Assembly (NCBI GenBank): GCA_003427395.1
Contig: BFEA01000022.1
Location: forward strand, 5,288,289 to 5,352,288
DNA from: Chara braunii
Taxonomy: Eukaryota > Plantae > Charophyceae
Length of the DNA: 64,000 nt
Reading direction: 5' to 3'
A model generated the notes under the pieces. That model searched no databases. It worked only from the letters and a program-made list of their open reading frames with translations, and was not told the origin of the DNA. A program made the translations under genes and the position numbers. Positions 820-50,760 of the stretch are shown in pieces. Each line of letters opens with the position of its first letter. The stretch's first letter is position 1.

Positions 820-2267
820 TGTCGGGGCGGGATGTTGGGTAGTACCGAGGGAATGAACCTGCCCCGGTTCTAACCATTAGTTCATCTAGTTTTCTTACGA
901 GAATCGGGGCAAAAGGAAATAAATCAAGAAAAACAAAAGAATCTAGAAATTGTAAAGAAAAGAAAAGTAATAATAAAAAAATATAATAAGATAAAAGAAA
1001 GAGAAATCTAACTACCTAACTACCCGTTCGTGCCATCNGTCGGGCAGACCACCTAACTAGAACTAATCCTAACACTAAGCTCGCGGGTTCAAGCCCCGGC
1101 CACTCGAAACCGGACAAAACAAAAGCGGGGNTCCTTTTCAAAAGGAGCTAGCTCAGCGGTCAACTGGATTCGTTCCCTGGATTCACTTCTTAACAGCCTA
1201 TACCTAAACCTACTAAGCTAGCTCCCACTTCAGGTAGAAGGGGAGCAGCTCTACTATGTATATAGTAGCGGGGCTCAGTCCAACCGGCGGCCTGAGCCCG
1301 TTCTAGCCTGTACGTGTGCGCACGCTTGCTGGTCCGCGCGTCTGCCTGCGTGCTCGCCGGCTTGAGTGTGTGTGTGACCAGCAAGGGCACTTGGTGGACC
1401 GGTAGGCCCGAAGGGCCGGTACTTAGCCGTGGCTGCAACATTGAGGGTCGCGGTGGGAAAGTTACAAGGTAGTCGGGTAAACCCGCACACTTAGAACAGC
1501 GGAAAAGCACTCAAGTAGCAGGTAGGCCGGTACCACACCGAGTAGTCCTGCCGGGTAATCGAGGCCGATCAGAAGAAGACAAAGTAGGTATTTCCAGAGG
1601 CCCAGTACCATCAGGTAGGCGGGCACCGGTTTTCAGTAGTACGAGTCTAGGTCCTGTGCGGATGATATCAGAGCCTGCAACGGTATCTCTCTATGCAGAG
1701 GGACGAAGGCACCGGTCACTCGGGTGGCGGCGTGGTAAGGAAGTCACCGCCCAAGGGGCGACTCCCTTTCTACCTACGGGAGGCTGAGTTAGATCCTCAA
1801 CCTCGCTCACGGTGCACGAGTAAGGATAGAGGTACTGATCGAGCAAGCGCTACAATCAGGACGCTGCCTCAACCTCGGTGACCTTACACTAATAATCGCT
1901 CCGGTCGTATGGCCGGGGCGTGTATTAATCTATTCTAACTAATGTACTGACGATTAAGTCTCAGCGTGCATGTAGATCTACTCGTCATAACATCAACCCT
2001 ATTGACCCCTCAACCTCTTCGGTCGCAGGGTATTACTGCAGATCCTAACCTTCACAGCGTTCGTCATAACAACGCGCGCATACTTAACGAAAGTTTCTCA
2101 CCGATTTTTGCCCCGACCTCAATGGCCGAAGAATTCGTTTCGACTGTCACTCTCAAGCGTGCACACCCTTTCCATTCCATACTGGCTCCGTCATGGTAGC
2201 CGATGCCGTCACCGTGTCGAATGCAAAAGCATGGCCAAATACCCTTGTAAGGGTATTTGGTCCGACA
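820..2267 (+). mobile_element. LTR-like unit (TGTCGGGGC...GGTCCGACA), member of the hairpin-CCGACA family
   Basis: Inverted termini TGTCGG/CCGACA; subterminal hairpin at 2234-2261 shared with units ending at 13933 and 52773; internal cassette shared with 52130-52260; flanks TTGT/ATGG do not form a TSD. Confidence 0.6.
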
Positions 2268-3299
2268 ATGGGGCTAGCAAAGGAAAGGGCTGCGCAAGGA
2301 GGAGTCGAGGGAAGTGGGTATGGACGGAGAAAGAGGTGACGATTTGCCCGATTCATCATAGAATCGGGTAAGGTAGGATGCTAGCTTAGAGCTTAGGCCG
2401 TGGCGAGGGCGAACGTAAGGTTAGTTTGGCTAGTGAGTTAGTAGACTAGGAGTTTGTAAGGAAACGAGCCACACGCGAGATGGCAGAGGCTGACTGTGGT
2501 AGAAAGGCGGGGGAAACGTAACTCACTCGATTCTTCATAGGACCGAATGAGTGGAGGTGCCAGGCAGGGGGTTCGGCAGGTGGCGTTTGTGATCCCGTGG
2601 TTAGTTTTGGTAGAAGAGTAGTAAGATTATAATTAGAAAAGAAAGGTAGTGCGAGGTGATAGAAAGGAGGTGGTGACGAGGAAGGAGGTGTGCAGGTGTA
2701 GGCGAACAGGGGGAACGGGCACGCGATACGAGGGATCGTGAGGAGTAATATGTGCCTGACTGTCGTTCCCATCATGTGTGATCGTATCGTGATCACCTTA
2801 ACGCTACCTGACCTCTATGTAAGCAGAGTGAACCGGGTCAGATGAGCGGCCAAATGCAGTCTTAATGAGCTGGGTGTAAGTGACTGTAAGAGATGAGGGA
2901 GTGTGACTATAGCATGAGTGTGTAAAGTGGCATACATATATACAGAGAGAGAGAGAGGGGGAGAACGTTTACCTTAAGGGAACGGAGGGCGTGAGACACG
3001 CAAAAGATAGAGTATCAAAGCTAAGTTACGAACAAAATTACTACAGCCTTTGTAAGAAAATACAAGTGGCAGCCAAATATTATACTGTCAGGCACCGCCA
3101 TCTGCCGCATGGTTGCTTGGTGCTTGCTACATATGTTTACCCCGGTCTCAGTATCCGGGCCAGGTTCACTTGGCCACTATAACAAGCAGGTGTAGAGCAT
3201 GGGTCATTGCCAAGGAGAGGGAAGGAGCTTATTACTGAAGATAGTGGGTGGAATGACTTTTTGAGCTAACTACGGTAACAAATTAACAGGTTCTCAGAA

Positions 3300-5003
3300 G
3301 GACAGACAAATATTTTGCCAGGGAGAGTGGGGCGACTATGTATACTGATTGCGTCTGTGACTGGTGCGACTTTCGTTACTCTTAAACACAGGTCTAGTTA
3401 AGTTGGGTACTGCGCACGGAAACTGGGCACCTTACGGATATTATTGTTGTATCTCCAGCATCATTGTGCTTTGACATATAGCACTACGGTTGCTACTTCT
3501 AGTATCTGTATATTGCTATGGTGGTTGTTGCGAGACCAGGGTCATTACGGCAGGTCACTGGGTTACCAGGACTGTTTGTTCCATGTGTTTCAGTAATTGC
3601 CTGTTTAAGAACGCTTTAGGTGCTTATTTTCCTGACTGTGCTGGGTGTCCTAACCACGGTTCATGCCCACTGGACATTGCGGGGCACTCATCTCAATGGT
3701 TGACAGTATATCTGCTCGTGTTAGCAGGAGGGAAGAAGTTTCTATGAGTGCGTGGGTGGCAGGAAGGAGGGACGTAAGGATCATCGAGCCCGTCAACATG
3801 ACCCTCGTGAGGAGTATTGCGGCGAGGCGAATGAGGGTTGCTGCTGGTGAGAAATTACTGCTACCACTGGGGAAACTGTGAGGGAAGGGGCATGTGCCGT
3901 AACATGCGGAGGAGTTTTCCCTAAGCAGTACTGAGTATACTGCTGAGTGCATTATTGTGCACTATGTTGAGTGCGTCGTTGGAGATACACTACTGCATAC
4001 TGATCGGTGTGGAGATATGACGCGGATGTTGAGTACCTGGGCTGCCACAAAATCAAGTTGTTGCACGGCCACTACTCGCACAGTTTCAGTAGGTTGTCAC
4101 GTCTTGTCTGCGTGCTTAATAGAGTAAGGGGGCGACTGATCATGACCTTGGAGTTTACCGCCTCCTCGGCAGGACGGCTGTTGTTACTGGCGGCTGCCAC
4201 GGTGGATACGTTAGGGCTGCTGTATGCCGGTGGGCTGTTTTGCGGACAGTGAGAGCACTATGTTTTAACGGTGCTTAGAACAGGCTATTACACAAGGCGG
4301 CTGCGCTACGGCTGCTGTAACATCAAATTCTGTTGTGCAACTCGTGCCAGCAACTGGTGCGCAGCTGTGGCTGCTGGCGCTATACCTTGCTACTGGTATA
4401 ATCCGTTGCTACCGTAACTGTTGTAGGAAGTTGTAAACATGCTACAGGCCGCTGCAATAGTACGGCCATACACATGTCCAAGTTGGGCACACCGCTGAGT
4501 GTCTTATGACTGCACACATCTGCGTATTGAGTGGTACGACGTTGTAACACTGTGGTGGGCATTGCGTTAAGCACGACTGAGGAAGTCGGGCGCTGTCCCC
4601 CACTGCGGGCCACTGCGGTGCGCATCCTGTGCTGCTGCTACTGGTGGCGGCTGCTGCTGCTGGGGAGGGTCTGCTGCTGTGTATTGTGCGCGATCGGTTG
4701 CTACATGCCGAACACTATTGATCGCGGTATGCTGCTACAGCGCTGGGGGACAGGGTACGGACTATGGATGCTGCTGCTGGCACGCACTGCTGTTGCTGTT
4801 AATCGCAACTTGCGGCCGCACATGTGGACTATTGCAGGCTAGTGTGTGGTCGTGAGCAGGCTGAGAAGAGGAGCTGAGACTTGGGGGGATGGTCAGGCTA
4901 GACGAGTAGGGGGTTAGTGCTATGGTTTGGGAGGTTGGGAGGGGATTAATTTCGGCAGCTCGACGTCAGAGATACTGACCAAGCTGGCACATTGGCCGCC
5001 ATT
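3300..5003 (-). pseudogene. Decayed Q/P/A-rich ORF of unknown function, antisense to the putative retroelement
   Basis: Minus strand reads e.g. AADPPQQQQPPPVAAAQDAH with CAG/GCA triplet periodicity and scattered TAG stops; candidate start ATGGCGGCCAAT near 5003; no recognisable domain. Confidence 0.3.
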
Positions 5004-5494
5004 GGGGGGCCCTCAGGCGCCTCCAGATTTCAAGGCTCTCTCATGGTGAGTTGAGTTGACCCATCCTTGGATCTCGAGAGTTTGAACATTATACTTCTAT
5101 CTTTCTCAGTCTCAGTCTAGTCTCTTGGTTACGAGAGGAAGGCGGCAGGCGGGATTGCAACCTGTAGGTCCGCAGCAAGACCTTGTGGGAGGTTCACACA
5201 CCGATTGAGGGGGCTCTATCGGAAACCAGGCAGGGTTCTAGAGGCAGGGAACTTCAGGTATAATTTCGTTTGACCCATGTGATCCCTTCCCCTAATTGCT
5301 ATCCTTGGGTATCGAAATAAGACTATGACAGGCTATTACTTTTTATTTTGCTATGTATGTCAGGACATGTTTTGCAAAGGGTTAGTGAACACTTATGTAT
5401 GAGAGTTCAGATGAACCTGAGTGAATTCAGACAAAATGAACGGGGGGGAAGGTGGGATGAAGGTGTTATGCATGCTTTGACTGGGTCAACCCAA

Positions 5495-6745
5495 GGCTGA
5501 GCTCCTCCAAGTTGATGTGGGCTCAGTGCTGTGTTTTATTTATGTTTGCTGGGTTGATTGTATGATCTTTGAGGGTTGGGCCTATCCTAAGTTGGACGGA
5601 CCAGTCGCTGTTTTTTCTGGGGTTTCTGCACAGGAGGATGGGCACCTTATGTTGGGAGGACTCAGAATCCTGATGTTTCGTTTGTGGGCGGCTGAAAACA
5701 GGACTAGGGATATTCTAAGTTGCGTAGACCCAGTTCTGTGTGTGTTTCTTCTGAGGGGGACACTGGCATGAGGGTGAGCGTACCCTTTAGTTAGGGCGGG
5801 TCAGTCATAAGCCATGAACAAAATGGTCAACCAAAGTATAGAAATTGCTACATATACTATATGAACTTATACTCTGACAGACCGGACATCCTAAGTTGGG
5901 AAAGTCAGTCAGTAAGTCTGGTAGAACAAGAAGAAAAGAGAAGCAAATAAATAGTATAATAAAGTTAATTCGGGCAGGCTGAGTGTACCCTTAAGTTAGG
6001 GCGGCTCACTCTTATGCTCGTAATAATGCAAAGGTGCAAAGAGTTAGTATAAATCTTCTTTTATTTTCCCTTCTAAACACAAGGCAGGATTGGATGTCTC
6101 CCTAAGTTGGGTAGGTCTGATCATCTGCCTAATAAGAGAGAAACATATAAAGTTTGTGCAAGTACATCAATGGTTGTTCTCTTATACTGTCGTTACGGAG
6201 ACTAAGCGTACCCTTAAGTTAGGGCGGCTTAGTCATACGTCGTTTGTGCTTTGTTCAGGCAGATCAGACGTACCCTTAAGTTAGGGCGGCCTGGTCATAT
6301 TGTTTTATGTACCTAAACCTGTTTAAGCTGGCTAGGCGTACCCTTAAGTTAAGGCGGCCTAGCTATATGCTCTTGTCGTTGTTGTTATGTAGGTTGGACG
6401 TACCCTTAAGTTAGGGCGGTCTGACCATTAGTCGTTCGTACTTGTTTTAGGCAGGTTAGGCACATCCCTAAGTTGGGGCAACGTAATCCTATGCCCTATG
6501 TAACCTTGTCTATGAGCTGGCTAGGCATACCTTTAAGTTAGGGTAGTCTAGTTTATGCTTAGTCGTCAGTTAAGCAGAAATCAGACGTACCCTTAACTTA
6601 GGGCGGTCTGGTCATATGTTTTATGACTAGAGTTTATGTGGTGTTGGGCATACCCTTAAGTTAGGGCAGTCCAGTTGTGAGTACATTTAGTTGTTTACTT
6701 AGGCAGGTTGTGAATACCCTTAAGTTATGGCCTTGTCTGATCCTA
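5495..6745 (+). repeat. Array of about 17 stem-loop repeats (core GTACCCTTAAGTTAGGGCG) separated by variable spacers
   Basis: Cores begin at 5780, ~5887, 5985, 6096, 6208, 6270, 6338, 6400, 6462, 6527, 6587, 6650 and 6714, with degenerate units near 5497, 5575, 5638 and 5702; each is flanked by 8-nt inverted arms. Confidence 0.92.
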
Positions 6746-8113
6746 TGCCATAGGTAAGGGGGTTATAACAGAAAAAGAACTGAGTGATCCAATGAACTAT
6801 TCAGGTTAAACTTATACTGGAATGTGAGAGATGTTTGTTCATGCATGTTTGTGGGCTCTCACTCTGAAGCGTCTTTTTGGTAGATTAGCTGTTTAGATGC
6901 TCGCCAAGTGCTGGAGCCATAGGGAGATTAGTTGGATGATGGGAGGGAGAGCTTGGGATGAAGATAGGACTGACCCTACTAGGAGTTAGGATCAGGGCTA
7001 GCTCACGACCTCATCTAGAGGTTGTGTGGGCTATCATTGATTCTAAATCATCGAGCAGGTGTCAGAAGATAGTCTGAAGTATAGCTTGCTTTGTCTTTTT
7101 GTCTTTCGGCTTTGTATAAATCTTGACAGCCTCATATTCCTACGGGAAGCGCTGCCGAAATTTCTGCAAATCAGAAAGAGTTAGTCATTTTTTGACTCAT
7201 AGAATTTCTGAAAAGGCACTTTTCCTACGGGAAGCACTGTCGAAGTTTTTAAGAATTTGAGGAGTTAGAATATTTTCAGCTAGGGGCTACTTAGCAGATC
7301 TATCCTGGATAGAGGAGATGTTCAGTGGTCTGGTACTAGTAGAGGAGTTAGGTTACGACATAGGGAGTATTTGCCTTCTTTGGCATAAACAAAGTAGTGT
7401 TTCTTTTGGCCTGTACTGTGATGCAGGTGTCCGTATTTCGCCTGAAGGTTTGACCTGATCAGCCTGATCCTTCAAAAGGATCACTTTTCTGTTATCACTG
7501 ATAACAAGTCGGTTGCCGATTCGTCGGTTTACGACTCAACTTTCCTATTTCTCCTGCCTCTCAACCTAAGGCCTTGGCCCTTGCCTGGTTCGTGTGTTTC
7601 TTTGGGTTTTCAGCTAGTTTCTTTATAAATGGTCATTTCTTAAAGACTGAGTATATTTGTTGAGGATTGGTGGGGAAATGGTTGGGCTTGTGTGCATAAG
7701 GCAGGGTGTGAGTTGCAGAAGGTTGGAAGGTTGACCCCTTTAGTGTGTGTGATGTTGTTCGAATGTTGTGTATATGATTGCGGGTATGTATGAAAGATTC
7801 TCGATTGAGTCAGGTTGAATGATTATGTTTTGGATTCAGATGGGCAAACCACACAACTGTCGTGAGAGTGAACTACCCACAACCTTTTGTTCGAGTGAGG
7901 TTGTCTTTTCCCATCCTGATAATGTGATAACCAGAGTAAGCGTACGCTCGGGTAACCCTTATAGGGCTACGCGACCACACGCTTACGTTTTCCTCTACTC
8001 AATGATTTTATTTGGTCGGACGTTAGTCCCAGGCCTGGAATTCAAGGTCCTTGTTAGGGACGTTGACTTACCTGCTGTCCCGTGAAAACGGAAGCGCCTC
8101 AAGGGGGAGGGGC

Positions 8114-9464
8114 TGTCCCCCAGCAACTCAGTCTGGCGAGGCGTTCGTATTTTCCCCTGCCAACGTCAAGTAATTTTTTTCTCTTTCCTTGTTTTAAATT
8201 ACTTTTGGTGGAACGATAGAGTTCCGGGCGGAAGGGATAGCGTGTCGCTGGTGGTGCGCAAGACAACTCACCACCGCTCCGAATTCCTTCTTGCCCTAGG
8301 GACCCGGACCATCTTACCCCACACCCTCTGGGACACTTCAGGCTGCTGAAGATGGTAAGGCCCTCAGGCCGGTTTTGCGTCCGTTAAAGGGTTACCCCCC
8401 TTAGTGCGCGCTTCAACCGATGCCTGAGCGTGGAGGGCGACCCCATAAATGAGGCCGCTCGCGTATGGGTACCACGTAAAGCGCCGTCATCACGACTGTT
8501 TACGCAAATCCACATTGTTAGTCGGTATGCGTAGGTCCTGCGTCCGCGCGGCTTTATACTAAACCACGCGCGCGTCACCTACTGATTTCCACGCTCAATG
8601 GTTATGGGTCAAGCGGAGAGGGCAAAAGCGCGTTATGGCCAGTAGGCCCGAGTTTCGGCAGCGCGAAACGACGCGGGGGCGAGGTATCGACCGTAGTCGG
8701 CCTATGGGGTTCCGCGTATGAGCCTTTAGCGCCTCGAACACTGGGTTACCTATGGGTCGGATTCTGGGCATCATCCGCACGCACCTTTCGCGTTGGCCTA
8801 CCCCGTCCATCCGGAACGGCTATCAGACCATCTGCAATTGTTTCCTCCTTAAAGTTTTCATGGTTGGACGTTGTAGTCCGTGGTAGCCGTCAAAGTCAAA
8901 CCCCTTGAGTTTGGCTACCACGACAGCCCTGAAGCTGCCTACTCAACCCCTCTGCACAGGGTGCAGAAGAGGGTGTGGTCTTCAACCGCGCATGGCGGTT
9001 GTCTGGCGACGAGAGATTACCCCTCAAAGCGCCTGCTAGCCGACACTTGAGTGTCGAACGCGACCCTCGAGATTATCAGGGGCCGCGAGGCTACGAGTAC
9101 TACATAGTACCCCATCAGCGCGGATACTTACGTATGTCCGCATGGCTGATATGAGGAGGCCATGCACTCGCTCGATACTTATACGAAAATCTAGCGCGCA
9201 GTACCTATCTGATTCTCACTACATAACGTTATGGGTCAGGTACTGAAGGGACTAGGAGTTGTTGCATTGGGGTGTTTTTTGTGGTGTTTGTTTTGTGTAT
9301 GTTTCCATGTGTTATGAGTGGGTAGATGTGAGTGTTGTGGTATAACGCGTGGTGTGTGTAGTGCGTCCCATTCGACCGGCGCTGAGTCGCGTTTGGGACC
9401 TCAGCCCCCCACGCGCAAGGGTTTGATTTTTGGGTGTTCGACCGTGCGTACCCCCTATGCGACA
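8114..9464 (+). mobile_element. Putative 3' LTR (TGTC...GCGACA)
   Basis: Follows the PPT; right end GTGTTCGACC-hairpin-GCGACA resembles the GTGTTTGACC/GCGTTCGACA-hairpin-CCGACA ends of the other LTR-like units; no matching 5' LTR in the window. Confidence 0.45.
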
Positions 9465-9595
9465 GCGAGCGAGAAACGCCCTCGGCTGGACCACCTCTGC
9501 AATTGCATACGAAAAGCCTTCGCATGTGGTTCAGTAGCTCGGCGGGGATACGCCCACCTAAGGGATGGTGACAGCTCCCGCAGGTGGAGGTAAGC

Positions 9596-9850
9596 NNNNN
9601 NNNNNNNNNNNNNNNNNNNNNNNNNNNNNNNNNNNNNNNNNNNNNNNNNNNNNNNNNNNNNNNNNNNNNNNNNNNNNNNNNNNNNNNNNNNNNNNNNNNN
9701 NNNNNNNNNNNNNNNNNNNNNNNNNNNNNNNNNNNNNNNNNNNNNNNNNNNNNNNNNNNNNNNNNNNNNNNNNNNNNNNNNNNNNNNNNNNNNNNNNNNN
9801 NNNNNNNNNNNNNNNNNNNNNNNNNNNNNNNNNNNNNNNNNNNNNNNNNN
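9596..9850. other. Assembly gap
   Basis: Run of N. Confidence 1.
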
Positions 9851-10693
9851 CAATGGTGGGCGCAGTGGCGACGGGGCACCACCACCTTTACTAACTGCAA
9901 GGGAGGGCGCACATACTGCCAAGTAAGTCGCCCTCTGCCCTTCTCCCTTTTTCTTCTTCTTCTTCTTCTTCTTCTTCTTTTTTTTTTTTTTTTTTTTTTT
10001 TTTCTTCTTCTTCTTCCTTTTCTTCTTTCTCCTCCTACCACTACTTCTCCTGCTACTTCTACTACCCTCCCCGTGCTTTGCTTTCTTCTCAGCGTGCGTG
10101 ATTCCTCCCTTGTTCTCCCACCACTATCTCACCCTCTTTGTGCTCACTACTCGCTTTCTCGCATCGAGCGCTCACACCAGGTTTTTCTCATGCATATCGA
10201 CCCTCTTTCTAGCTGCGCACTTGCCTTTTTTCCACTTGTAGGTCCGTCATCTCCGTTTACCATGCGCGCTTTCCCCGCGCCCCTCCATTGTCACCACTTG
10301 CATTCTCTCCTTTATCCCGCTCTGTGTCCAATCACCTTCGTCCAGCTGCTTGCTGTTCGCCTGCTCGGTCATCTTCTTTCTCCCGCTGCACACTCAACTT
10401 CCTTCTCCCCGCACTTTCCTCCCTCCACTCCACGGCTACTTCTCACGTTCCCACAACCGCAGTCTATTCCAAGTTGTACGTGGCTTGGTGAGATCTTGGT
10501 AGCGGTGTGTTTTTGCTGCAATAGCAAGTTCCCTTTTCTCAATGGAATCTGCCTACGATTCGGAGCATATTCATTACAGTCTAGGAAGAAAAAAAAAAAA
10601 AGCTTGGTGAATATAATATTAAAAATAATAAAAAATGACATCTACTGCAAAATCTAGTAAAAGATCAAACAAAATGAAATAAAGATTTTCTAA

Positions 10694-11895
10694 GGGCATA
10701 CTCACACACGAATAGCAAAATTGCATAATTTGCAATTTTGCAATTGCGATTTTGAGATTTCGTGGCTCGTTTTACACTCCTTGGGGCGTCATCGAGGCGG
10801 AAGGAAGTTTCCTTGGGGGTTTTCAAGGAAATTCCCGCCATCGTTCCACCTGTCCTCGGGGACCTTGTCCCACTTGCACCGTTTAGTTGAGGCAGCTCAA
10901 CTGTGCGACAGCTAAAAAAAATCATTTTAATTCAATTTCGAATGAGAAATGCATTTATAAATGTCAGGAATACAATTGTTCTCGTTTTTCATTTTTCACA
11001 ATTGGAGTGGCATACGGGCACTTCCACAGCAGAAAATGAAGAGGTGCCCGAATCCCGTCCAAAAATAGCAAACGGAAGGAGGCTCGTACAGTTTCTTTTG
11101 AAAAACGTCTGTTGGGGGAACAAGAAGGTCGTTGAACTAGCTGTCTCGAAAAAAGGAGACAGCTACTAGTAGTTCAACGGAAAGTGGCGAGGGTAGGGGT
11201 AGTAGTATTCGAGAAAAAGGATTTATTTCTGTTTTTTGTTGTAAGAAAAAGCGAAGATGGTCTCTATTGCCCATTTTATTAAAAACGGACCATTAGATGA
11301 ATTGGACGACGTACATCTCCCTTGTCGCGTACAGTCACACAGGCTCGAAAACCCCACGTTGACCTAGCTCAACGGAGCTAGTGGGACAAGGTCCCGGGGA
11401 CGTCGCCCGAGGACATTTCCTTTGAACGATGTCAGACAAGAAAAAGAAAAAAATCAAATGTGTTTGAGGCCTTCAGCCAGTAGGGTGCCGCCATGATCCA
11501 GATTCTCGGTTGTAACGTCTCTCTACCCATGTGCCCTCTCCTCTCCGTGAAACGCGGATTCCTTTTGCCCAAGGGACCTTATGAGGTCCTTTGGCCAAAA
11601 GGAAGAATTGGTTGGGGAATCCTCGGAGCCCAAGGAAGTTCCTTCAGAGTGTTTTCACTTTTTTTTTCCCCGACTACATCCCCGAGGATACGTAGAACGA
11701 ACAATTCCTCGGGGACTTTACTTGCCCGAGGAGTGTCGAACGAGCCCCTTAGTTGGGGTGCGTACTCACACACCGCTGCCTTTGTGAATGAGACATCGCC
11801 CCGACTTTCTGAAAATTGGTCCATTTGGTATCAGCTTGGTCACACAACTGTTAGCAGATGGTGGAATATTTTTTATTTGGCTTTGAATTTTTCAT

Positions 11896-11952
<57 letters not shown>

Positions 11953-14567
11953 CTTTCTTTTCCTACAACGTTTGGGCCCTCACGATCATGACTTCAAATT
12001 TCGTCTGGCAGCAGCCATTGCGGTACCGATCGGTCAAGCACTCGAATCTACGTTACCATCTGCTGAGAGGCAGAAAAAAAGTTGGCAGCACGGTGTCGAG
12101 CGCATCGGCTCCCACCTTTTGGCAAAGGTGCGGGAGCCCTCCCGGCCATGTCACGCAGGAGTAAAACAAAACACAACCAAAGAGAGACAACTCAGGGACG
12201 ACGCATAATAACCCCACGAACCGCGGTTGCACCGTCCCTTCACCGCTCTAGCCGGGTGCGCCAGCTGTACATCCCGCGGTCCCCTACGACAGGATAGGTT
12301 CCTGCGGAAAATAAACTTTCCCTCCCTAAGGGGTTGTCACCACCCTTAGGGGTGTATCCCTACCGAGCTACTGATCCACGTGCGAATGTTTTTAAATGCA
12401 ATCGCAGAGGTAGATCAGTCGAGGGCGTTTGCTCGTTCGCTGTAGTATAGATACGCTTGGGTAACGCCAAGCGAACCCGAACGTCGTTCGTTCCTAGGGC
12501 GCTGATCTCCTAGGTACGGAGTAAACGTCGGTCGACTAAGATGGTCTCAACCAAGTGTGAAACTATAATTCATCTTAGTCCCTTATACACATAGTCAAGC
12601 GATAGTTACAACAACCATACGTATAATTTTATCAGAAGGAATCGACCGTAGTTGACACGAATAAATATTCCCAGTGTTAAAAAAATAACTAGAAAAAAAT
12701 GCAAATCATAATCCCATATATCCAATAACACAAGATCAAAAACTATCCGGCCGCCTCAGGTCGAATACCACAAAACAATCAAACAACTGGCAACGAAAAC
12801 TTGGCTAATCGAAAATAACATTGATGTTGCCAACATGGTTGTTGGACAACCTCAGTTCTGACTTGATAAGACGCGTTGCCAAAGTCATTCATTCCATCCT
12901 ATCGCCGATCTAAGATTCGACGCGCATGTCTGTCTTCGTCCATTTTTAATTTTTTTGGATGACAAACTACCTTACGTATGATTCTTGATCAGGGGCATGG
13001 CTTGACGTGTTGCATGCCTCTTCCTCTAGAAAGTGGTCTGGGGTACTCCTCCTCCTCATTCGAGCACAAGACTCGGATCACAAAAGTCGGGCCGTCTCCA
13101 CCGAATCGGTAAGTACCCCCCCGTAGAACAGTCCACTCTGGGTCGATAACAGGGTCGGCTTCTAAAGCAACAAACCCTCACCCCATATGCCTCCTGAGGA
13201 AAAAGGATGTGTTCACCGCAAGTAATTTTCAATTATTCTCATTTTTTCTAAGTTCAGGGTAACTTGGACGAAAAGAATTCAGGAAAGGTAAAGAATGAGA
13301 ATCATTTGGATAGGTATAGGCAGAGAAGGTCGTTTGGGATAGAAAGTGTCAATCTCAAGGAAGCTAAGTCCTTTTGACATTTTCTGCTTTATTTCAATCG
13401 CTTTCATTTTACTACACGCACTTAATAACCGTCATGAGGCTTCATCATAAGAACAAATCATTATTGACATCCAGGTAGGTGAGCAGTAAAAAGAAGACAA
13501 TCGTTTTTCCTTCTCTCAAATAGGCATAATCAATCTCTTTTGCAAGCATCATTTTACCTACTCCCCCTGTGCCACGACCCTATACCCGGCGCCCCCCATC
13601 TTTTTAGCCTCCTTAGGCCCTGAATCGCGCGGCTTAACAGCCGCGCGACTTTATTCTAGGTAGAATAGGTTTAGTTTTACCGTTCCCATATCTGCACATT
13701 GTTGCGGCTTCGACAAAAGCGAAGCATTACCATTCACATCCGTTACTCCCGGAAGCCACACGCGTTCGGACTGACGTTTGAGAACTTTTAGTCTGTCAGT
13801 CATAGGTCAGGTTTGAATAAACTTTCGGCAAACATCGATCTCATAAAGTTCTTCAATCCAAAGAAAGAGTCGGACAGCGTTCGACATTGAAAAATCCCCG
13901 GCAAATACCCTTGTCAGGGTATTTGCCCCGACAACGGTTTTTTGCACATGTCGGCGTACATGTGCTTGTTTAAGCCCTGGTAGAAAAAGAGCTGGCAACA
14001 CGGTTCTTTGCACCTGCCCGCATACATGTGCTCATTCAAGCCCTGAAACCGGGTGGAGGGCAACGAAATCTGCCTCTATTCTTGATGAGGGTCTGACTAA
14101 TCTTGCGGAGGGCAAGACTATTCGCATGCGGGAATGGGGGGAGAAACTGCGGAGGAGGGCTGAAGGGCAGTGCAAGCGGGTACGTAACTCACCTGGGGGC
14201 GGAAGGGACCCCGCCACTACGGACAAACCCGTTACACACGGGCATTCTATTGTGCATGACGCCAAAAATGATACAGGCGCTGTATGACTGTCCCGTTGGC
14301 AACCGAACATAGCAATTTTGGACTGTAGTAGGCACAAAGTTGCGTTTTCTGGCCTGTGGAGGTTTTTTTTTTTTTTTTTACAAAATTTAAATGTGAGTTT
14401 ATGAGGACCTCTAGAGGTCTTCGCAATTTGCTGAACCTCGCAGCCCACAGGCCGCTGACAAATACTACATTGTTTGTGATTTTGCTGGGGGTGGGGGGAA
14501 AGTGTGACTGCAAAACATCATCAGATTTTGCGACTTTGAAAATTAGACCCCTAGTGTGAGTATGCCC
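10694..14567. mobile_element. Non-autonomous PIF/Harbinger-type element carrying a nested insertion
   Basis: Perfect 14-bp TIRs GGGCATACTCACAC / GTGTGAGTATGCCC with TAA on both sides (10691-10693, 14568-14570), the typical Harbinger TSD. Confidence 0.88.
12094..13933 (+). mobile_element. 1840-bp solo-LTR-like insertion (TGTCG...CCGACA) with 4-bp TSD ACGG
   Basis: ACGG at 12090-12093 and 13934-13937; removing the insertion restores one copy of a ~66-bp tandem unit whose intact sister lies at about 13979-14045; the last ~350 bp align with 52440-52773. Confidence 0.85.
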
Positions 14568-14989
14568 TAAGACACGCAAGTAGCATTCAGGAGGTCTTGG
14601 GTTTAATCCCCATTGGCCTCATGTACCTTCCTGGGCATGCTTTGCGCCCGCCACCTAGAGATAGTCTGTTGGTCCCTCCCCAATTGGCATTGAAAGTAGT
14701 CTCTCTTGATATTCATAGGGGGAGGGGTAATCGGGGAGGCACAGTGACTGGCCACTCAGATGATGCTTGGTCCCTCTGCTACCGGCTGTCCCCTAGTTGG
14801 TGTCCCCCACTGGGGGTTCCCTGAAGGCAATAAGGCCATCCTGGGCTGAAAAGGTCACCCAGTGTCAGATTAGACACAAGATTGAATCTATCTAGGCTGG
14901 TTAGTCCGATGATAATACATCAAGGCCAACGCCCTTTAAAAAAAAAAAAAAAAAAAAACTTCCTCGTTGCAACTACGCGCTCCATGCCT

Positions 14990-16180
14990 TAGCAGGGCTA
15001 AGTCCAACCAACCAGAAACTTCTACAGTGGTCGCTCCTGCCCCATAGCACGTGCCTGTTTCGAAGTCTGTGTGTGTGTGTGCCCGCTGGGTTGAGTGTCT
15101 GTTTTCCTAAGTCTGTGTACGTTTATGCCTGCTGGTCTGAGTGTTTGTCTGAGTGCTTGTAGGCCTAAGTGCGTGTGTGACCCGCAAAGGTACTTGCTTG
15201 TTTGGGAGGCCCCACAGGGTCAATACTTACTTGAGGCCGTGACTTTGAGGGTTGCAGCGGAAAAACACTCAAGTAGCGGGGGTAGGCCCGCGGCACTTGG
15301 AGAAGCAAGGAAGAACACTCAAGTAGAAGGCACGCCGACACCACTCAAGTAGCGGAAATGTGTTGGGAACTAGCCGCCAAGCAGAAGAAAACACAAGTTA
15401 GCATTTTTAAAGGCTTAGTAGCGGTAAGTACTCGGGTACCACTCTAAGTAGTCCGAGTCTAGGCCTGTGTGGATGATATCAGAGCCAGCAATGATCTTTC
15501 CCTCCGGAAGGACGGAGGTACCGGTCGCTCGGGTGGTCGAGCAGCTAGGAAGTTACCGCCCAAGAAGCAAATGCCTCTCCACATACTAGAGGCCGAGAGA
15601 TAGCCTCAACCTCACTTTGTGGTATACACGTTTGCACGACGAGCCGCTCTAACAAGTGCTAACAATCCGGGTGTTATTGCAATCCCATCGATCACACATT
15701 AATAATCGCCCCGACCGTATGGTCGGGGCATATATAATCAGCTTGACTAACGTGCTGACGCTTAAGTCTCTGTGTGTGTCGTAAGTTTACCTGAAATAAC
15801 TTAACCCAATCAACCCCTTGACCTTCGTGGTCGAGTGAGTTCTAATACTTTCAGACTCTTTTTATTCGAGCGTTGTGCCAAGGTACGTGCCTCATACTTT
15901 TTTCGGACTTGATTGTTTTCCGCTACCGAGATGGCGCATACTACTGCGTAGGCCTGACTTTATTAAACCGAACCCTCGACTTTTATGGTCGAGGGGCATT
16001 TATTACTGATTTTAACCATCTAAGCGCGCGTCAGAACAACACACGCGCGTACTAACCAAATTTACTTTCTGATACGCCTCGACCTCAATGGTCGAGGAAG
16101 TCGTCTCAAAGTGTCGCGCAAAAGCGTGCACGCTTTTATCGTCAGACCGACTCCGTTACGGTAGTTGATGTCGTCGTTAT
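14990..16180 (+). mobile_element. Truncated, diverged relative of the 820-2267 unit
   Basis: Colinear shared blocks with 1266-2215 (AGTCCAACC, CACTCAAGTAGC, CGAGTCTAGG, GGATGATATCAGAGCC, TAATAATCGC, CGACCTCAATGG). Confidence 0.85.
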
Positions 16181-18642: not shown

Positions 18643-19423
18643 GGTACATGATGTCACCGGTTTCGCATATGCATGAACTCCCCGCTGAAAAAATTGACGA
18701 GCAAGTTCGACCCATACGGTGCCGAATACGGCCGGTTACTGATGTGAGCCCTTGTACATGCATGGAAAAACGACAAAATATAGTGTGGATATGCGATACG
18801 ACATGAGTGAAAGGTTGACACAACAATAAGTGGGAGTGAAATAACGTCACAAAAACACAATTGTGTGCAAGATTCATCCGTATTATTGAACATAAACACA
18901 CACACATGACCACTTACTGCTTGCAACGTACGTACATGCATGCAATGAAACTGCGCACACATTGTGAACATGCACCACAACAACATGTGCAACTCATCCG
19001 GCACAAGCAAAAGGTTAAGATAACAATTAGTCGGGGTCAAATAACACCATAAAAACATACAGTTGTACAACACCGACCCGCAATATTGAACCAACACTCA
19101 CACGCACATACGCGACAATTAATTATGTGTCAAAATACACGTTAACAACCATATTGAAAACTTGTTGAAAAAAAGTTGGAGGTCTATATGAATCCATGTT
19201 GGACTCGTTGAGAAGAAGTTGAACATGTTGAGAAGAAGTTGAACACAGTCGAAGACCCACTTTCAACAGTTGGTCACAACCCTTTAGGGCTAAAAAAGTT
19301 GGAAATGAAAATGAAAATTTGTTGAAATTCGACGACAATTTTTTCTGTTGATGGCGCTTTGTCATAGATGGTGGTGCCTTATGGCGGAGATGTGCAGCCT
19401 AACGATGAGACGTACTTCGACAC

Positions 19424-19756
19424 GTGCCACAAGACCGCGAGGACGTTGTGGAAAGAGCTTTCGGGCGACTGAAGGGCATGTCACAGTGGCGGTTGTTCCT
19501 CAGGCACCACGAAACGAACATTGATAAGATGCCCCTGCAGTTCACCGCGGTCTGCATCATCCACAACCTGCTCATCGAGGTCAGGATAGATGTCGACCAA
19601 CGCTTGCTAATGGAGAGAGACAAGAATGGGAACCAGCGGCTGATCGACCTCGGCATGCGTGAACCCACAGTCCTAGTGTCTCAAGCGGACGCGAGTGAAG
19701 TGGTGTTAGACTTGTGCTCGCCACTAACTCAGTGCATGCAGCTCCTCCGCGAGTAG
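19424..19756 (+). pseudogene. PIF/Harbinger (HARBI1-like) DDE transposase, C-terminal fragment
   Basis: Motifs VVERAFGRLKG-x-WR and AVCIIHNLL; N-terminal catalytic aspartates absent. Confidence 0.9.
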
Positions 19757-20829
19757 ATCTGACAATCTCTTTTCTTGCATGGCCTCGCGGATGCATACGC
19801 ATGGTAGTGCGTTTAGGTGTAGAGGATCATCACCGACCGTTATATTGGTAGGGATGGCGATGTCGTAATAGCGTTCCACACATTCCGATTTGGAGGAGTA
19901 TGGGGGTGGGGGGAGAGGGGGGGGGGCTGGTTGAGTTGGTTTACATTTTTTGTTCGAGGTGCAAGTCAATCCTTTCGTCTTTTGGGGAAAGCAATCAATG
20001 CTTGCACGACCACTCTATTGAGGTTGCATTTAGCAGTACAATGGTCCAATTAATCAGGTGTGTTGCTCATGTGATGTTAAAACTGTGTGCATTACAAAAC
20101 TTCGGTTTTCCTTCCCTGCACCGTGGTTGACAATCGGACACACACAAAGTGGATGCATCCGTAATCGGACGTTATTTTTTCCTCACGATCGCATATAACA
20201 CACACCCTTCTATTGCAACAACGCATAAGTTTATGAAGTCTTACCATTTCATATTCTTGTATGAGTGAATCATAGCGTGGTCGTATGTTTTACGCCGCGC
20301 TACATCACAACCACATCACATAAAAATAGCATGCCAAATTCGATGGGGAAAAAATGAAGTAAAAAACCAGCCTCGCCGACCTCCACGTGGGGACCAACCC
20401 CTTCCCCCCTCCTGTGGTTGTACTCATCGAAGATCACGGTCCTACCCAGCACACGCCCCATGCATACTATGACAATGTACATGGTGTGCACACGCACCTG
20501 ATCAACGATCTCCCTCCCCGGATACGACCACAGATCACCTACGCCCTTTCCCCCCACAAAGGCCACATGCCCCCCGACTTGATCCATCTAGAAATGGCGG
20601 CTTTGCGGCAATGATGCTTTGCAAACAGACAGCTCGAGGGGCAGCGCAACCAACGCCTTCTGCAAAAATAGTTGAAACCCCGCTTAAATAGCGAATAACA
20701 CCACCTCAGCGTCGAACAAGGCAAGTGCGGCCCATAGCCGAGAAATTGGAAATTTAACCAAAAACATGAAAACAACTCTGATTCTCTAGAGAAAAAAAAC
20801 ACAAAAATAAAACCATTAAACCCTGCCCC

Positions 20830-22525
20830 TCGCCCACTATGCACGCCTACTTTTTCTTATCGATACGACATGGACAGACTACGCGAGAAAAAGATCAGTC
20901 TATCACGTGGAGGTTGTTCCCGCAACAATCATAAGCCATCAAGACCTCGTCAAGGCTTCCACTATCTTCATCAACGCCTCACACAACATGTGTTGCCCCA
21001 CGTCCAGGACTTCGCACTACGTCTCGTGCACTTTCACCTCCCTCTCCATAACATCGCATTGCCGCTACAGCACATCGCATTGTCTCTTGATCGCCCTGTC
21101 CATGGAATCCGCAATGACGGTCGAGTGTGTGTTCATCATATCGGTAACCGCCTCGAACGCCTGTTGCTGTGCATTTTTCATTTTTCAAAAATTTGAAACC
21201 TTCCGATGTTCGGCCTCTCGATCTGTCTCCCCCGCCCGCCTCTCCATTCCACCTCCGCTGTTTCCCCCTCCTTACAGTTGAGACGCGACGGTATCCACTA
21301 GATTCGGCGGGTGAATGATCTGGTTGGCGCCTCATACAGGCGCCGGTCCATTTGAAACTTGTGCCCCCGCCTCATTTCGTTGCTTGAGCCTGAGAGTGAA
21401 GAACAACTGTTTGTCGGACTCCTTTTCTCTTAACTGCACCTTCTTGTACCACGAGAAGATGTTCTCCCACCGCTTCATACATTGGTTGCAATCACGTTTC
21501 ACCCCTAACGCCTCCATGCGGTTGGTGATGTCCGTCCATTTGCACTCTTTGTTATTCATGCACGCGAAGTTGTGCTCCACGGTGTCCAAGGCCTCGTCCT
21601 GATCCCGCTTACAACGGACAAGTGTGAGGGAATCATCCAGATTCCATATAGTCCACCATCCGCTGCCCGCCTTTAAGTTACCTTTACCTCGCCCTTAGAA
21701 GCGGTTTTCTTCGCAGGTGTCTTCTTACGGTCGCAGGAAGCCGGAGGAACTTCGTCCTCCATCTCCTCTTTTTCTTCTTTCTCCTCCTCTACTTCATCTA
21801 CATCTTCACAATATCCATCTTCAACCCTGCCTTCTCCACCGCCGCCACCGTCACTTGTCGCACACATTTTGGATACACATGAGATGATGTGTTCCACCAC
21901 ATTTGGCTCTCTGCTCTCCGCTCGGTTCCCCCTCGTTGCAGCGGTCCCCCGACCAGCGCCGGTAAGTCTTGCGAGTGGCCTGCCCACTCCACTGTTATTT
22001 ACAGGATACCCCGGCTGCTGCACCCCGACGGTCGTCGATCGCCCTGCCTCGCAGTCGACAAATGGCTCCTCTTGAGATCGGTTGGAAGGATTCACCAGCA
22101 AAGTTCTGGATGCGGTCGCCTGGCGCCTAGATGATAGCTGCAAGTTGAGAGGCGGTCCCATGACCCGCTGCTGTCCATGCATCGGGAGAGATGTCATGGG
22201 TCCCTGCTGCTGACAAAGCTCCGCCCATTCCATTCCACACTCAGAGATGAACTGCGTCGATCCATGCGCCAGAGGGACGGCAGATGATTGTGGTTCCTAT
22301 GGCTTGTCATCAGGCAGTGGTTGTTGCCACGATGGCAGGTGCGCATACCGTGCCGGGCCGAAACGGATCATGCCCGACGGCCGTTGTTCCCCCACACCTT
22401 CCACCCCCTCCATGCCGTATAAGAGCTGCTTGTGCTCGTCACTGCCTGTCATGCCTCCCTTTTGGCTGCGTGACCACTTTCGTCGTTTTCCGCCTCCGTG
22501 GCTGACGACGGACCCGCAGCTATGA
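20830..22525 (-). pseudogene. Harbinger-associated Myb/SANT-like (trihelix-type) DNA-binding protein, frameshifted
   Basis: LDDSLTLVRCKRDQD...KWTDITNRMEALGVKRDCNQCMKRWENIFSWYKKV at about 21430-21645; acidic/basic linker upstream; split over several ORF fragments. Confidence 0.85.
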
Positions 22526-47247: not shown

Positions 47248-47978
47248 TAAGTCTACCACAACCAAACACAGTCATAGAGAGTTACGGAGGGCAATACCGA
47301 AGTCTGCCTCTGTTGTGCCTCTACCACAAGCAAACACAGTCATAGAGAGTTATGGAGGGTAATACCGAAGTCTTCCTCCTCTGTTGTACCGTGCCGAAGA
47401 CAAGATTATACCGCGCGACTACCTTCTTCCCTCGAATACAACATATGGTCATTATAGCTGTATTTAGACTGAAAGATACCCCAAGTACACCTATAAGGAC
47501 CGTACCTTGTATTCGGGCGAAGAAGGTAGTAACGTTCCCACCACCACTGAGGACATCCTCACTGCCAGTTGTAGTGCCGTTATCAATAGCCACTAGGAGC
47601 CTGAGAGTTACCTGTTTCGGTTCTATAGCCACTAGGAGCCTGCGTTACCTACACGGGTTTCCCACCACGCACCCTTGGATCCCCAAAAAGAATCTGGATA
47701 TTTCTGGATATTACCGGTCACAATTGATACAACTCAAGTCTGCTCCCATCTGAGTTTGCGCTGACCATCAGAAGTGCATCCTGTCCGCAAGACTGGTAGC
47801 ATTCCCACCGCCACCTAGGCCACTTTTACTGCTGTCAGAGGCGCCACTACCAGCCGAGCTCTATTACTAGCTCCTGATGGTCTGGCCAGGCATGCTCACC
47901 CATTATCCATCGAGTCTACTAATCAGATCCAACCATGACCCAGTAGAATTCAGCAAAACTTCAACCTCATCCGGTAGG

Positions 47979-48829
47979 CGTTAAAAAAGAAGAAAGAGAG
48001 TAAGTCCAACCAATTTTACCTACTACAAATTCAACAGAAATCAAAAGTTGCTACCAGCCAATAATACCTACAGGGGGAGCAGCAGGAGTCGGCAATCTGT
48101 ATATAGGGTATGGCGTATGCTAGCACGCATACAAGAAGCCCTTGAGGATGTGCCCCATTCACTTATGCCTACCATTCAAATTACCAGGAGGAAGCGCCCA
48201 ATGAGTTGGCACACTACGAAAGGCACCGATGAATACTGTGTAACTCCTGGTTGCTGCAATAATTTCAACAAAGAGCACCATCAAGGAAGCAGAGTCCCTA
48301 CTAATGAGCATCACACCCTTCATTCAAACTGAAGAAGTAACTTGAGAGAAAATGGACAGACCTAGCATTAATTGTGACCACGAACATACCTCCAAAATGA
48401 TACGTTAAAAAAGATGAAAGAGAGTAAGTCCAACCAATTTGACCTACTACAAATTCAACAGAAATCAAAAGTTCCTACCAACCAATGTTACCGACAGGGG
48501 GACCAGCAGGAGTCAGGCAATCTGTATATAGGGTATGGCGTATGCTAGCACGCATACAAGAAGCCCTTGAGGATGTGCCCCATTCACTTGTGCCTACCAT
48601 TCCAATTTCCAGGAGGATGCGCCCAATGAGTTGGCACACTACTAAAGGCACCGATGGATACTGTGTAACTCCCGGTTGCTGCAATAATTCCAACGAAGAG
48701 CACCGTCAAGGAAGCAGAGTCCCTACTAATGAGCATCACACCCTTCATTCAAACTGAAGAGATGTAACTTGAGAGAAAATGGACAGACCTAGGATTAATT
48801 ATGACCAGGAAAATACCTCCAAAATGATA
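47979..48829. repeat. About 424-bp tandem duplication
   Basis: Copies start CGTTAAAAAAGA at 47979 and 48403 and both end CCTCCAAAATGATA. Confidence 0.95.
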
Positions 48830-49570: not shown

Positions 49571-50760
49571 GGCGGGTTCGTCACACCAGTATCAGAGCGG
49601 GAACGGTCGCCGCTTCCACCCATCCCATCCGGCGAGTGGTGAGAAAATGGCGTGAGTCTCGATAGCGGGATTTTGGCCGTCTTTCAGAGCCAGAAGACGG
49701 AAAACAGCAGGAAAAGTGAGCATCGCTGAGTGTCGCATGCGCACGCGCCACATGTCCCACTGTCCCGCCCCACCCCACTCCAAGATTTATATTATATCAA
49801 TATTGGGGAGTGCAGCTGCCGGGATTTGAACCTGGGCAGCTGCCAGCCATGCGTGTGCATAGCCAATGTCCTTGTAGTGTGGCACATTGGTGATGAAGAG
49901 TGCCATGCCAGCTATTTACCCACCCTCCCACGCCCCCTTAACCCCGCCTGCGAGCACTGGCTAATACGACAGCAGCAGGTGGGCTGCTTTTTGTGCGCTT
50001 CCCCCCCTACAGTTGACGCCGAAAAATTCCAACAGCATTTCCGCGTCACCGCCAAAACGCACAGCTGCCGCCGCAAAATTTCGGCAGCGCTTCCGCGTCA
50101 CCGCCAAAAAGCACAGCTGCCGCTGCAAAATTTCGGCAGCGCTTCCCCTACACACTTCTCAAAAATGGATGCCGCCGCCGAAAAAGTCACGCAGCATATC
50201 CCCTACACTCCTCCAAGTGCAGCGGCAGCTATGACTGCCCTCACTCTCACGCTCCCTGCGGACCTCCAGCGCTTTTCTCTCTCTCCATCCCGCTGAGATG
50301 GCGGCTATGGCTGTGTTCCCCAGCTATGGCCACCTCCAGCAATCCTCCCCTCTCTCTCTTGCGGACCTCACTCAGCTCTTTCTCACTCCACCAGCAGCTC
50401 CTCCTCCAGCAGCCAGCATTCACTCAAGTGGAGTGCCAGTAGCACCAGCTACAAATGAATGTTGGCTGGCTGGCTGCTGGCTTGTTTTATAGCTGGCTGG
50501 AGGCTGAGGGCAACTGCTTTGCCCCCAGCCAAAACTCGGAGTGAGGCCAGGCCCTTGATCTCAGACGAGATCAAGGGCTGGAAATCTTGATGTTCCCCTA
50601 GGGGAACCAAGTTCCAGGCTTTGGTAATGCATCTGGCCGTTACCCCCGGCCAGACGCAGCTTCAACTGGCTGTATAGAGCCAGATAGAGCAGACTGTTGA
50701 GGTTCAACAGTCTGCTATCATCTCACGGTCCAGATGCTTCTACTCCAGCATCTGGCCCTG

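What the first reader, a model, noticed from the sequence alone, without database searches (positions are those of the whole stretch)
5495..6745. Repeat-spacer array of about 17 covarying stem-loops: candidate multivalent RNA element
Seen: each ~35-nt unit reads 8-nt arm, GTA, CCCT-TAAGTT-AGGG, CG, 8-nt arm. The apical hairpin is nearly invariant, but the arms differ between units while staying complementary within a unit: GACTAAGC/GCTTAGTC (6200-6234), GGCTAGGC/GCCTAGCT (6330-6364), GGTTGGAC/GTCTGACC (6392-6426), GATTGGAT/GTCTGATC (6088-6122), GGCTAGGC/GTCTAGTT (6519-6553). Across ten units I count by hand about 17 G-T pairs against 3 A-C mismatches on the + strand. Spacers are dissimilar T/G-rich stretches, giving a 60-68 nt period in the right half and about 100-112 nt in the middle. 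Inference: an ordinary minisatellite would not conserve pairing while losing sequence, so selection seems to act on a single-stranded + strand structure. It could be a polyvalent protein-binding scaffold (Gag packaging, export or localisation) or a substrate cut into unit-length small RNAs. The layout recalls a CRISPR array, but no cas gene is visible.
Basis: partly seen in the sequence, partly recalled or inferred. Interest (0 to 1): 0.88.

Follow-up and report, generated by a model that had tools for sequence, protein, structure and literature searches.

The report
Hairpin array in algal retrotransposon RNA
A high-copy repeat, likely a jumping gene of a freshwater green alga, carries 17 small hairpin-forming units whose stems change in matched pairs while the loops stay nearly fixed, on the strand that related copies transcribe; they likely form a repeated docking site for a protein on the element's RNA.

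Summary
The array is real: 17 units at 5493-6742, 11 regular and 6 irregular. Arms are about 55% identical between units, yet 91% of their pairs hold. Within-unit Watson-Crick pairing is 62 of 88 against 47 in partner shuffles, P=1.6e-4. New here: the 3x2 internal loop GUA/CG covaries non-canonically, G.G in 9 units and A.A in 5, never mixed, as a folded RNA motif would; it recalls HIV RRE stem IIB. The array lies in a high-copy repeat, 1.36 kb before a polypurine tract and a TG..CA repeat on +, so probably in the 3' region of an LTR retrotransposon. No gag or pol was found beside it. Two stranded libraries show low + strand reads from related copies, and a neighbouring transposase gene confirmed the read direction. 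The G-T excess (18:3) is only marginal against local skew (P 0.04-0.08). Spacers are duplication products, not CRISPR-like. Best reading: a multivalent protein-binding handle on the element's RNA for export or packaging; the binder is untested.

The parts
5493..6742 (+). Array of 17 hairpin units with a TAAGTT-type hexaloop
5493..5735 (+). Four irregular left units (loops at 5508, 5588, 5648, 5716); three have a 3-bp apical stem, the register of the first is unclear
   Evidence: model hit 5574-5606, E=2e-5
5772..6122 (+). Middle units (5772-5806, 5876-5910 irregular, 5977-6011, 6088-6122) with 65-77 nt A-rich spacers
6200..6742 (+). Nine right units, period 60-68 nt, spacers related by duplication; the last unit (6706-6742) is irregular
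   Evidence: unit number varies among copies (joints skipping 70-147 nt)
4951..9573 (+). High-copy repeat that holds the array (left edge known only to one 240-nt bin; right end uncertain)
   Evidence: summed contig depth 16-191 over 2300-4950 against 958-121,513 over 4951-9500; depth is not a copy number
8101..8112 (+). Polypurine tract-like run directly before TG
   Evidence: sequence; the role is inferred
8114..9573 (+). Candidate LTR, TG...CA, with 6 of 7 terminal bases in inverted match; right end unsure
   Evidence: family sequence continues past 9573
5442..5470 (+). Second purine-rich run before TG at 5464: alternative LTR start that would put the array in U3
   Evidence: sequence; not resolved
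5036..5278 (-). Interrupted reading frame from an ATG at 5278, a candidate antisense ORF; unverified
   Evidence: no homologue; stop counts do not single out this frame

Best explanation
The array is a row of 17 related hairpin-forming units that likely folds in the 3' untranslated part of a retrotransposon RNA and likely binds many copies of one protein, which would mark the full-length RNA for nuclear export and packaging. Each unit offers a fixed UAAGUU loop on a short stem and a 3x2 internal loop (GUA/CG) predicted to form a G.G or A.A pair, a flipped pyrimidine and an A.C pair; the outer 8-bp arm is a freely drifting scaffold. Shown: the units, their covariation, the high-copy context, unit-number variation, and + strand reads from related copies. 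Inferred: that the host is an LTR element read on +, that the structure forms in vivo, and that a protein binds. The binder is most likely element-encoded (Gag or an accessory protein, supplied in trans for this copy, which has no gag or pol nearby). Within this reading I put export or trafficking slightly ahead of packaging, because of the 3' position.
For: Conservation falls from loop (0.94) to apical stem (0.79-0.83), arms (0.54-0.55) and spacer edges (0.33-0.44), yet 90.9% of arm cells pair and 5 of 8 arm pairs show two-sided changes; 0 of 500 shuffles reach the covariation score. The outer internal-loop pair is G.G in 9 and A.A in 5 of 16 units, G.A or A.G in none (Fisher P=5e-4; 0.0014 without one unit whose A is private to this copy; 0.012 after collapsing near-duplicates by hand); the inner pair is A.C in 11, C.A in 1, A-U in 2, A.A in 2. 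Of 15 displayed near-fixed differences between this copy and others within the array, 8 hit paired sites and all 8 give a Watson-Crick pair in the other copies. With RNA energies + is more stable in 15 of 17 units. Reads over 5433-6878 have the first mate on -: X10 0.12-1.15 against 0 in five of six bins; X8 0.2-2.63 against 0-0.31. A + strand transposase fragment shows the same direction (2.56 and 2.82 against 0), so the RNA is +. A contig of another study's probable RNA run spans 6089-6928 at about 90% identity. Retroviral export elements lie in this position (MPMV CTE directly upstream of the PPT, PMC11379458, passages), and Rev binds a GUA/GG loop with a G.G pair and a bulged U (PMC4488727, PMC6649712, passages).
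Against: No binding, probing or functional data. No gag, pol or other Pfam domain in six frames of 1000-13000, so the host class rests on anatomy alone; no tRNA-type primer site follows 9573 and family sequence runs on past it. RNA depth is very low, comes from related copies (8 of 130 and 24 of 192 reads at 95% or better), and X8 and X10 share a study; X9 covers both strands about equally. The - strand control is thin: X10 agrees (0.21 and 0.16 against 0), X8 does not (0 against 0.1). Units are related by duplication, so the P values overstate independence, and the unit tree has no supported fork. Both internal-loop Gs lie in CpG, so decay could give A at either. Contigs of other units may cross-map and push majority letters towards the unit consensus, and only 40 of 1,278 difference rows were shown. 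The G-T excess is marginal against local skew.
Confidence: 0.55

Rival explanations
1. The hairpins fold in the RNA but are read by a host RNA-binding protein, for stability, localisation, translation control or evasion of silencing, not by an element protein.
For: All the structural and strand evidence fits equally well. The MPMV CTE uses host NXF1 (PMC11379458, passages). No element protein was identified.
Against: The motif is found nowhere else in the window at E<0.02 and has no Rfam match, as expected of a family-specific handle; this is weak evidence.
Confidence: 0.17
2. A neutral 3' tandem repeat of the Tat/Retand type whose arms were kept complementary by template switching or intra-hairpin conversion, with no selected function.
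For: Spacers and arms show unit duplications and unit number varies among copies. 3' tandem arrays of unknown function are common in Retand elements (PMC11963269, passages).
Against: Palindrome correction should also close the 3x2 loop and remove G-U pairs; instead the loop keeps its size, G.G alternates with A.A, and the unpaired hexaloop is the best-conserved part. Seven of eight other repeat arrays in the window show no folding signal (z above -1.1 on both strands; the eighth -2.2 and -3.0).
Confidence: 0.12
3. A double-stranded DNA enhancer or protein-site array (the core holds TTAGGG, a telomere-repeat-like word), for instance in U3 if the LTR starts at 5464.
For: The core is conserved in sequence; an alternative LTR start exists at 5464; maize Sirevirus LTRs carry palindrome arrays in their cis-regulatory part (PMC4728375, passages).
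Against: Duplex binding does not explain covarying arms, G-U tolerance or G.G/A.A covariation; Sirevirus palindrome arms are conserved in sequence, these are not.
Confidence: 0.06
4. A precursor cut into unit-length small RNAs.
For: Regular period and hairpin shape; hairpin-derived small RNAs are proposed for Sirevirus palindromes (PMC4728375, passages).
Against: Only 12 interrupted pairs per unit, short for a Dicer-like substrate (general knowledge); arms diverge while the loop, which would be discarded, is conserved. No small-RNA library was available.
Confidence: 0.05
5. The structure acts in single-stranded DNA during replication, or the host is a tyrosine-recombinase (DIRS/Ngaro-type) element with split repeats rather than an LTR element.
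For: The repeat continues past the proposed LTR end and no tRNA primer site follows; unchecked earlier notes of this scan report hairpin arrays in Ngaro elements.
Against: First-strand cDNA would be the - strand, where the wobble pairs become A-C; DNA energies are weak (mean -4.4 and -3.8 kcal/mol). A purine tract before TG and inverted TG..CA ends favour an LTR element. A DIRS-type host would not by itself remove the RNA-docking reading.
Confidence: 0.05

Closest known systems
3' tandem-repeat arrays of Tat/Retand (and Ogre) Ty3/Gypsy elements (PMC11963269: first fifth of the text and passages)
   Same: Family-specific tandem array of variable unit number between the coding region and the 3' LTR, in elements that often carry antisense ORFs; function unknown.
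   Different: That paper has no occurrence of 'secondary structure', 'stem', 'hairpin' or 'packaging' and finds Retand only in flowering plants. Here arms covary and loops are fixed; no RT or TRP28 domain was found.
HIV-1 Rev response element, stem IIB (PMC4488727, PMC6649712, PMC10730233: passages)
   Same: 3x2 internal loop with GUA on the long strand, a G.G pair and a bulged U; multivalent protein loading on unspliced RNA. That A.A can replace this G.G pair is recalled (Bartel et al. 1991, seen only in a reference list; one search did not confirm it).
   Different: The second pair is A.C here, G.A in RRE; 17 separate hairpins instead of one branched 350-nt fold; no Rev-like protein identified; no shared ancestry is implied.
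3' RNA transport elements: MPMV CTE, MusD MTE, MER11 CTE (PMC11379458, PMC3362945: passages)
   Same: Structured cis element on the sense RNA upstream of the PPT; similar size range (162 to over 1,400 nt).
   Different: Those are single complex folds in mammalian elements; this is a modular tandem array, 1.36 kb from the PPT, with no export assay.
Palindrome arrays of maize Sirevirus LTRs (PMC4728375: passages)
   Same: Repeated hairpin-forming motifs in a plant LTR element.
   Different: Sirevirus palindromes have sequence-conserved symmetrical arms and lie in the LTR; here the arms drift in matched pairs around a fixed loop.

Membership tests
LTR retrotransposon (host element) | Polypurine tract directly before a TG-starting LTR | tested here: met
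   8101-8112 then TG at 8114; a second candidate at 5442-5464
LTR retrotransposon (host element) | TG...CA ends with short inverted repeats | tested here: inconclusive
   6 of 7 match at 8114 and 9573, but family sequence continues past 9573
LTR retrotransposon (host element) | Two direct LTRs, target-site duplication, primer binding site | tested here: not met
   no second direct copy in the window; no TGG-type site after 9573; an N gap starts at 9596; no genome held
LTR retrotransposon (host element) | gag-pol domains | tested here: not met
   none in six frames of 1000-13000; the copy may be truncated or non-autonomous
Retand/Tat lineage | RT clusters with Retand | not testable with these tools
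   no RT linked to the array
Retand/Tat lineage | Antisense ORF, usually with TRP28 | tested here: inconclusive
   interrupted minus frame at 5278 with no Pfam or database match; frame not supported by stop counts
Retand/Tat lineage | Tandem array in the 3' region, variable in unit number | tested here: met
   the 3' position depends on the PPT assignment
RRE-type response element | Internal loop with purine-purine pairs and a bulged U | tested here: inconclusive
   G.G/A.A covariation and T at the middle position in 13 of 16 units; the second pair is A.C; no 3D data
RRE-type response element | Element-encoded arginine-rich protein binds and drives export | not testable with these tools
   no candidate protein identified
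Constitutive transport element | Confers export of unspliced RNA without an element protein | not testable with these tools
   needs a reporter assay
CRISPR array | Near-identical repeats with unique acquired spacers and cas genes | tested here: not met
   arms about 55% identical, spacers related by duplication, no cas family
Known Rfam RNA family (including small ribozymes) | Covariance-model match | tested here: not met
   no match in the array at E<=1; none at gathering score in the window

The most novel reading that the evidence does not exclude
A green-algal retrotransposon has independently built a polymerised Rev-response-like element: 17 copies of a hairpin whose G.G/A.A, bulged-U internal loop is read by an element-encoded protein to export and package full-length RNA. 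It would be a Rev/RRE-like system outside animal retroviruses, and would give a function to the 3' tandem arrays of plant Gypsy elements.
Probability: 0.15. Interest if true: 0.88.

Novelty: new variant of a known kind. Interest (0 to 1): 0.62.

Why it matters
Tandem arrays in the 3' region of plant Gypsy elements are common, and their origin and function are stated to be unknown (PMC11963269). Here is one whose evolution shows selection on an RNA fold, down to a non-canonical pair, on the transcribed strand. That turns 'function unknown' into a testable claim with a defined 35-nt unit and natural compensatory variants. How green-lineage LTR elements export and select their full-length RNA is, to my knowledge (recalled), largely unresolved. 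Unchecked notes of this scan report other hairpin arrays in unrelated retroelements, which lowers the uniqueness of this one but hints at a recurrent design.

Tried and rejected
No whole genome is held, so copies could not be aligned. Pattern scans: a 21-mer found 0 stretches in metagenome contigs; a 16-mer found 4 in viral contigs; a looser two-unit pattern found 120, 2 and 39 stretches in the three collections. None of the 165 loci matched 2300-9600 by blastn at E<=1e-3, and the covariance model hit 1 of 165 (a single unit, E=5e-4, in a locus selected by the core motif). By eye these loci are Bacteroidales palindromic repeats, a CRISPR-like array and satellites. Phage records: no match. Protein searches for the minus-strand frame found nothing; one search used the wrong frame and is void; four window ORFs were not in the exact-match collection. 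No indexed holder was on record as RNA: no RNA holder listed; small shares in soil and freshwater metagenomes were listed, and only the freshwater run was laid (151-266 nt pieces on the array). A kissing-loop reading was rejected: the loop is not self-complementary and the CTTAAG palindrome is absent from the units whose stem ends in C before the loop. A K-turn was rejected: no tandem G.A pairs (motif recalled). A self-priming site after 9573 gave only an 8-bp complement, within chance by my estimate. No tRNA gene in the window. Literature searches listed no paper describing this motif or a covarying hairpin array in the 3' region of a plant or algal LTR element; only open-licence papers are covered and no supplements were read.

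Full report
Setting. The window is eukaryotic and rich in transposable elements: LINE domains at about 23.4 and 31-35 kb, Gypsy-type protease, RNase H and integrase at 53-57.5 kb, and a Harbinger-like pair, a weak DDE_Tnp_4 match on + at 19.4 kb (E=0.056) and a Myb domain on - at 21.3-21.7 kb (E=9e-8). The style of the sequence suggests a charophyte alga such as Chara; that is recall and no call confirms it. No whole genome is held.

The observation. The 14-nt core occurs 10 times against 0.45 expected. Anchoring on the hexaloop gives 17 units between 5493 and 6742. Eleven keep the register 8 bp, 3x2 loop, 4 bp, 6-nt loop; I chose these by eye and set six irregular units aside for the alignment-based tests. 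In the 11 units the arms hold 62 Watson-Crick, 18 G-T, 3 A-C and 5 other pairs of 88; shuffling arm partners between units gives 47.1+-4.2 Watson-Crick pairs (P=1.6e-4). With all 17 units at fixed register the figures are 73 of 136 against 51.9 (P=9e-5). On the alignment of 11, 92.4% of cells pair, 6 of 12 pairs change on both sides, and 0 of 500 shuffles reach the covariation score; the number of such pairs (74 of 500) and of pair types (429 of 500) is not unusual. RNAalifold returns the same structure unaided, at -14.7 kcal/mol on + and -10.5 on -. Identity between units is 0.94 in the loop, about 0.8 in the apical stem, 0.55 in the arms and 0.33-0.44 at spacer edges. The units are not independent: several pairs share 13-14 of 16 arm bases and right-half spacers align with each other, so the array grew by duplicating unit plus spacer.

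Strand. The G-T excess is weaker than it looks. The region is G- and T-rich on +, which predicts a G-T share of 0.61-0.70, so 18:3 has P=0.013-0.084; without two arm positions private to this copy it is 17:2, P=0.007-0.046. Better evidence is RNA. In two stranded poly(A) libraries of one study the first mate lies on - across the array (X10 0.12-1.15 against 0 in five of six bins and 0.41 in the sixth; X8 0.2-2.63 against 0-0.31). The + strand transposase fragment shows the same direction (2.56 and 2.82 against 0); the - strand Myb gene shows the opposite direction in X10 (0.21 and 0.16 against 0) but not in X8 (0 against 0.1). The RNA is therefore most likely +. Depth is low, nearly all reads are under 95% alike and so come from related copies, and a third library (X9) covers both strands about equally, for a reason I did not determine. 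A probable RNA run of another study has contigs over 5476-5872 and 6089-6928 at about 90% identity.

The internal loop. This is the new point. In 16 of 17 units (the first has no clear register) the outer positions of the 3x2 loop are G.G in 9, A.A in 5, C-G in 1, A.C in 1, and G.A or A.G in none (Fisher P=5e-4; 0.0014 without one doubtful unit; 0.012 after a hand collapse of near-duplicates). The inner positions are A.C in 11, C.A in 1, A-U in 2 and A.A in 2; the middle base is T in 13 and C in 3. Sister units 6345 and 6534 differ at both outer positions. Both Gs lie in CpG, so decay can produce A, but independent decay should leave mixed pairs more often than double changes. A tree of the units has no supported fork and cannot count the events. 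Coupled non-canonical changes point to a three-dimensional RNA motif. The geometry matches HIV RRE stem IIB, where G71-U72-A73 faces G47-G48 with a G48.G71 pair, a G47.A73 pair and a bulged U72 that widen the major groove for Rev (PMC4488727, PMC6649712, PMC10730233; passages). That A.A can replace G48.G71 is recalled, not confirmed by my searches. Four of five loop bases agree; this is a lead, not homology.

Other copies. Summed contig depth in a DNA run rises from 16-191 over 2300-4950 to 958-121,513 over 4951-9500, so the array is part of a high-copy repeat, and joints skipping 70-147 nt show that unit number varies. Of the 40 difference rows shown (of 1,278), 15 fall in the array: 8 at paired sites, all of which give a Watson-Crick pair in the other copies (4 from mismatches, 4 from G-U), 2 in loops and 5 in spacers. 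This copy is thus a decayed one and the family pairs better. Cross-mapping between units could inflate this.

Host element. On +, a purine tract at 8101-8112 directly precedes TG at 8114, and a TGACA ending at 9573 matches that start in 6 of 7 inverted bases; an inverted second copy at 12335-12450 (82% over 120 nt) ends at the same word. This suggests an LTR with the array 1.36 kb upstream of the PPT, on the sense RNA. Against a tidy picture: both ends sit in hairpins that reach beyond them, other copies continue with shared sequence past 9573, no tRNA-type primer site follows, an assembly gap starts at 9596, no second direct LTR is in the window, and six frames of 1000-13000 hold no gag or pol. 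A second purine run before TG at 5464 would place the array in U3 instead; either way it would lie near the 3' end of a + RNA. An interrupted minus frame starts at 5278. I recall similar starts among predicted Chara proteins, but no search found a relative and stop counts do not favour the frame, so an antisense ORF is unverified.

Mechanism. I commit to a multivalent docking array on the element's full-length RNA, read through the hexaloop and the internal loop by an element-encoded protein that routes the RNA to export and packaging (0.55). Shown: units, covariation, high-copy context, + strand reads. Inferred: LTR host, folding in vivo, any binder. A host binder (0.17), a neutral repeat kept complementary by template switching (0.12), a duplex DNA site array (0.06), a small-RNA precursor (0.05) and a single-stranded DNA or DIRS-type role (0.05) are the rivals.

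Comparison and novelty. By position it resembles the 3' tandem arrays of Retand/Tat elements, whose function is called unknown and for which no structure is mentioned (PMC11963269), and the 3' transport elements CTE and MTE (PMC11379458, PMC3362945). It is not filed as a member of any of these: no RT is linked and no export was tested. It is not CRISPR and matches no Rfam family. No homologue was found in public contig collections, and eight literature searches listed no description of this motif. Earlier unchecked notes of this scan describe other hairpin arrays in other retroelements; none matched this sequence, and they are leads, not support. Verdict: real, structurally selected and apparently undescribed; a new variant of a known kind; interest 0.62.

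Noticed in passing
window 8094-8141 and 9554-9592; 12310-12350: Both proposed LTR ends sit inside predicted hairpins; the right-end hairpin keeps its pairing with different sequence in the inverted second copy.
   Followed up: partly
window 2233-2262 and 13902-13937: A near-perfect hairpin with TACCCT...AGGGTA arms occurs twice (89% identical) and scores E=0.02 with the array model.
   Followed up: no
window 11745-11760: An isolated apical hairpin like the array unit (model E=0.19) lies at the edge of a short stretch with strong - strand RNA reads from related copies.
   Followed up: no
window 1324-2210 and 15127-16175: Two diverged copies (69%) of another repeat, each with a word one base away from an initiator-Met primer site (motif recalled); the second copy has RNA reads on both strands.
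   Followed up: no
window 14568-14860: Short, heavily transcribed repeat; loose read ends show a tRNA A-box-like word, suggesting a SINE (motif recalled).
   Followed up: no
window 19409-22296: Decayed Harbinger-like pair: transposase fragment on +, Myb/SANT gene on -; used as strand control.
   Followed up: partly
window 53125-63100: Gypsy-type pol followed by an unassigned 311-aa frame and several tandem arrays (periods 40, 56, 65, 40, 26); the four that were folded show no folding signal.
   Followed up: partly
window 47418-47530, 47979-48829, 50009-50146: A 113-nt self-inverted repeat, a 427-nt tandem duplication (94%) and a 52-nt array that folds well on - (z -3.0).
   Followed up: no
L127, L140, L150, L156 and other Bacteroidales loci; L109: Clustered CCCC-TAAGTTA-GGGG palindromes in Bacteroidales genomes, and a CRISPR-like array whose repeat holds a TAAGTT hairpin; unrelated to the window by blastn.
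   Followed up: no
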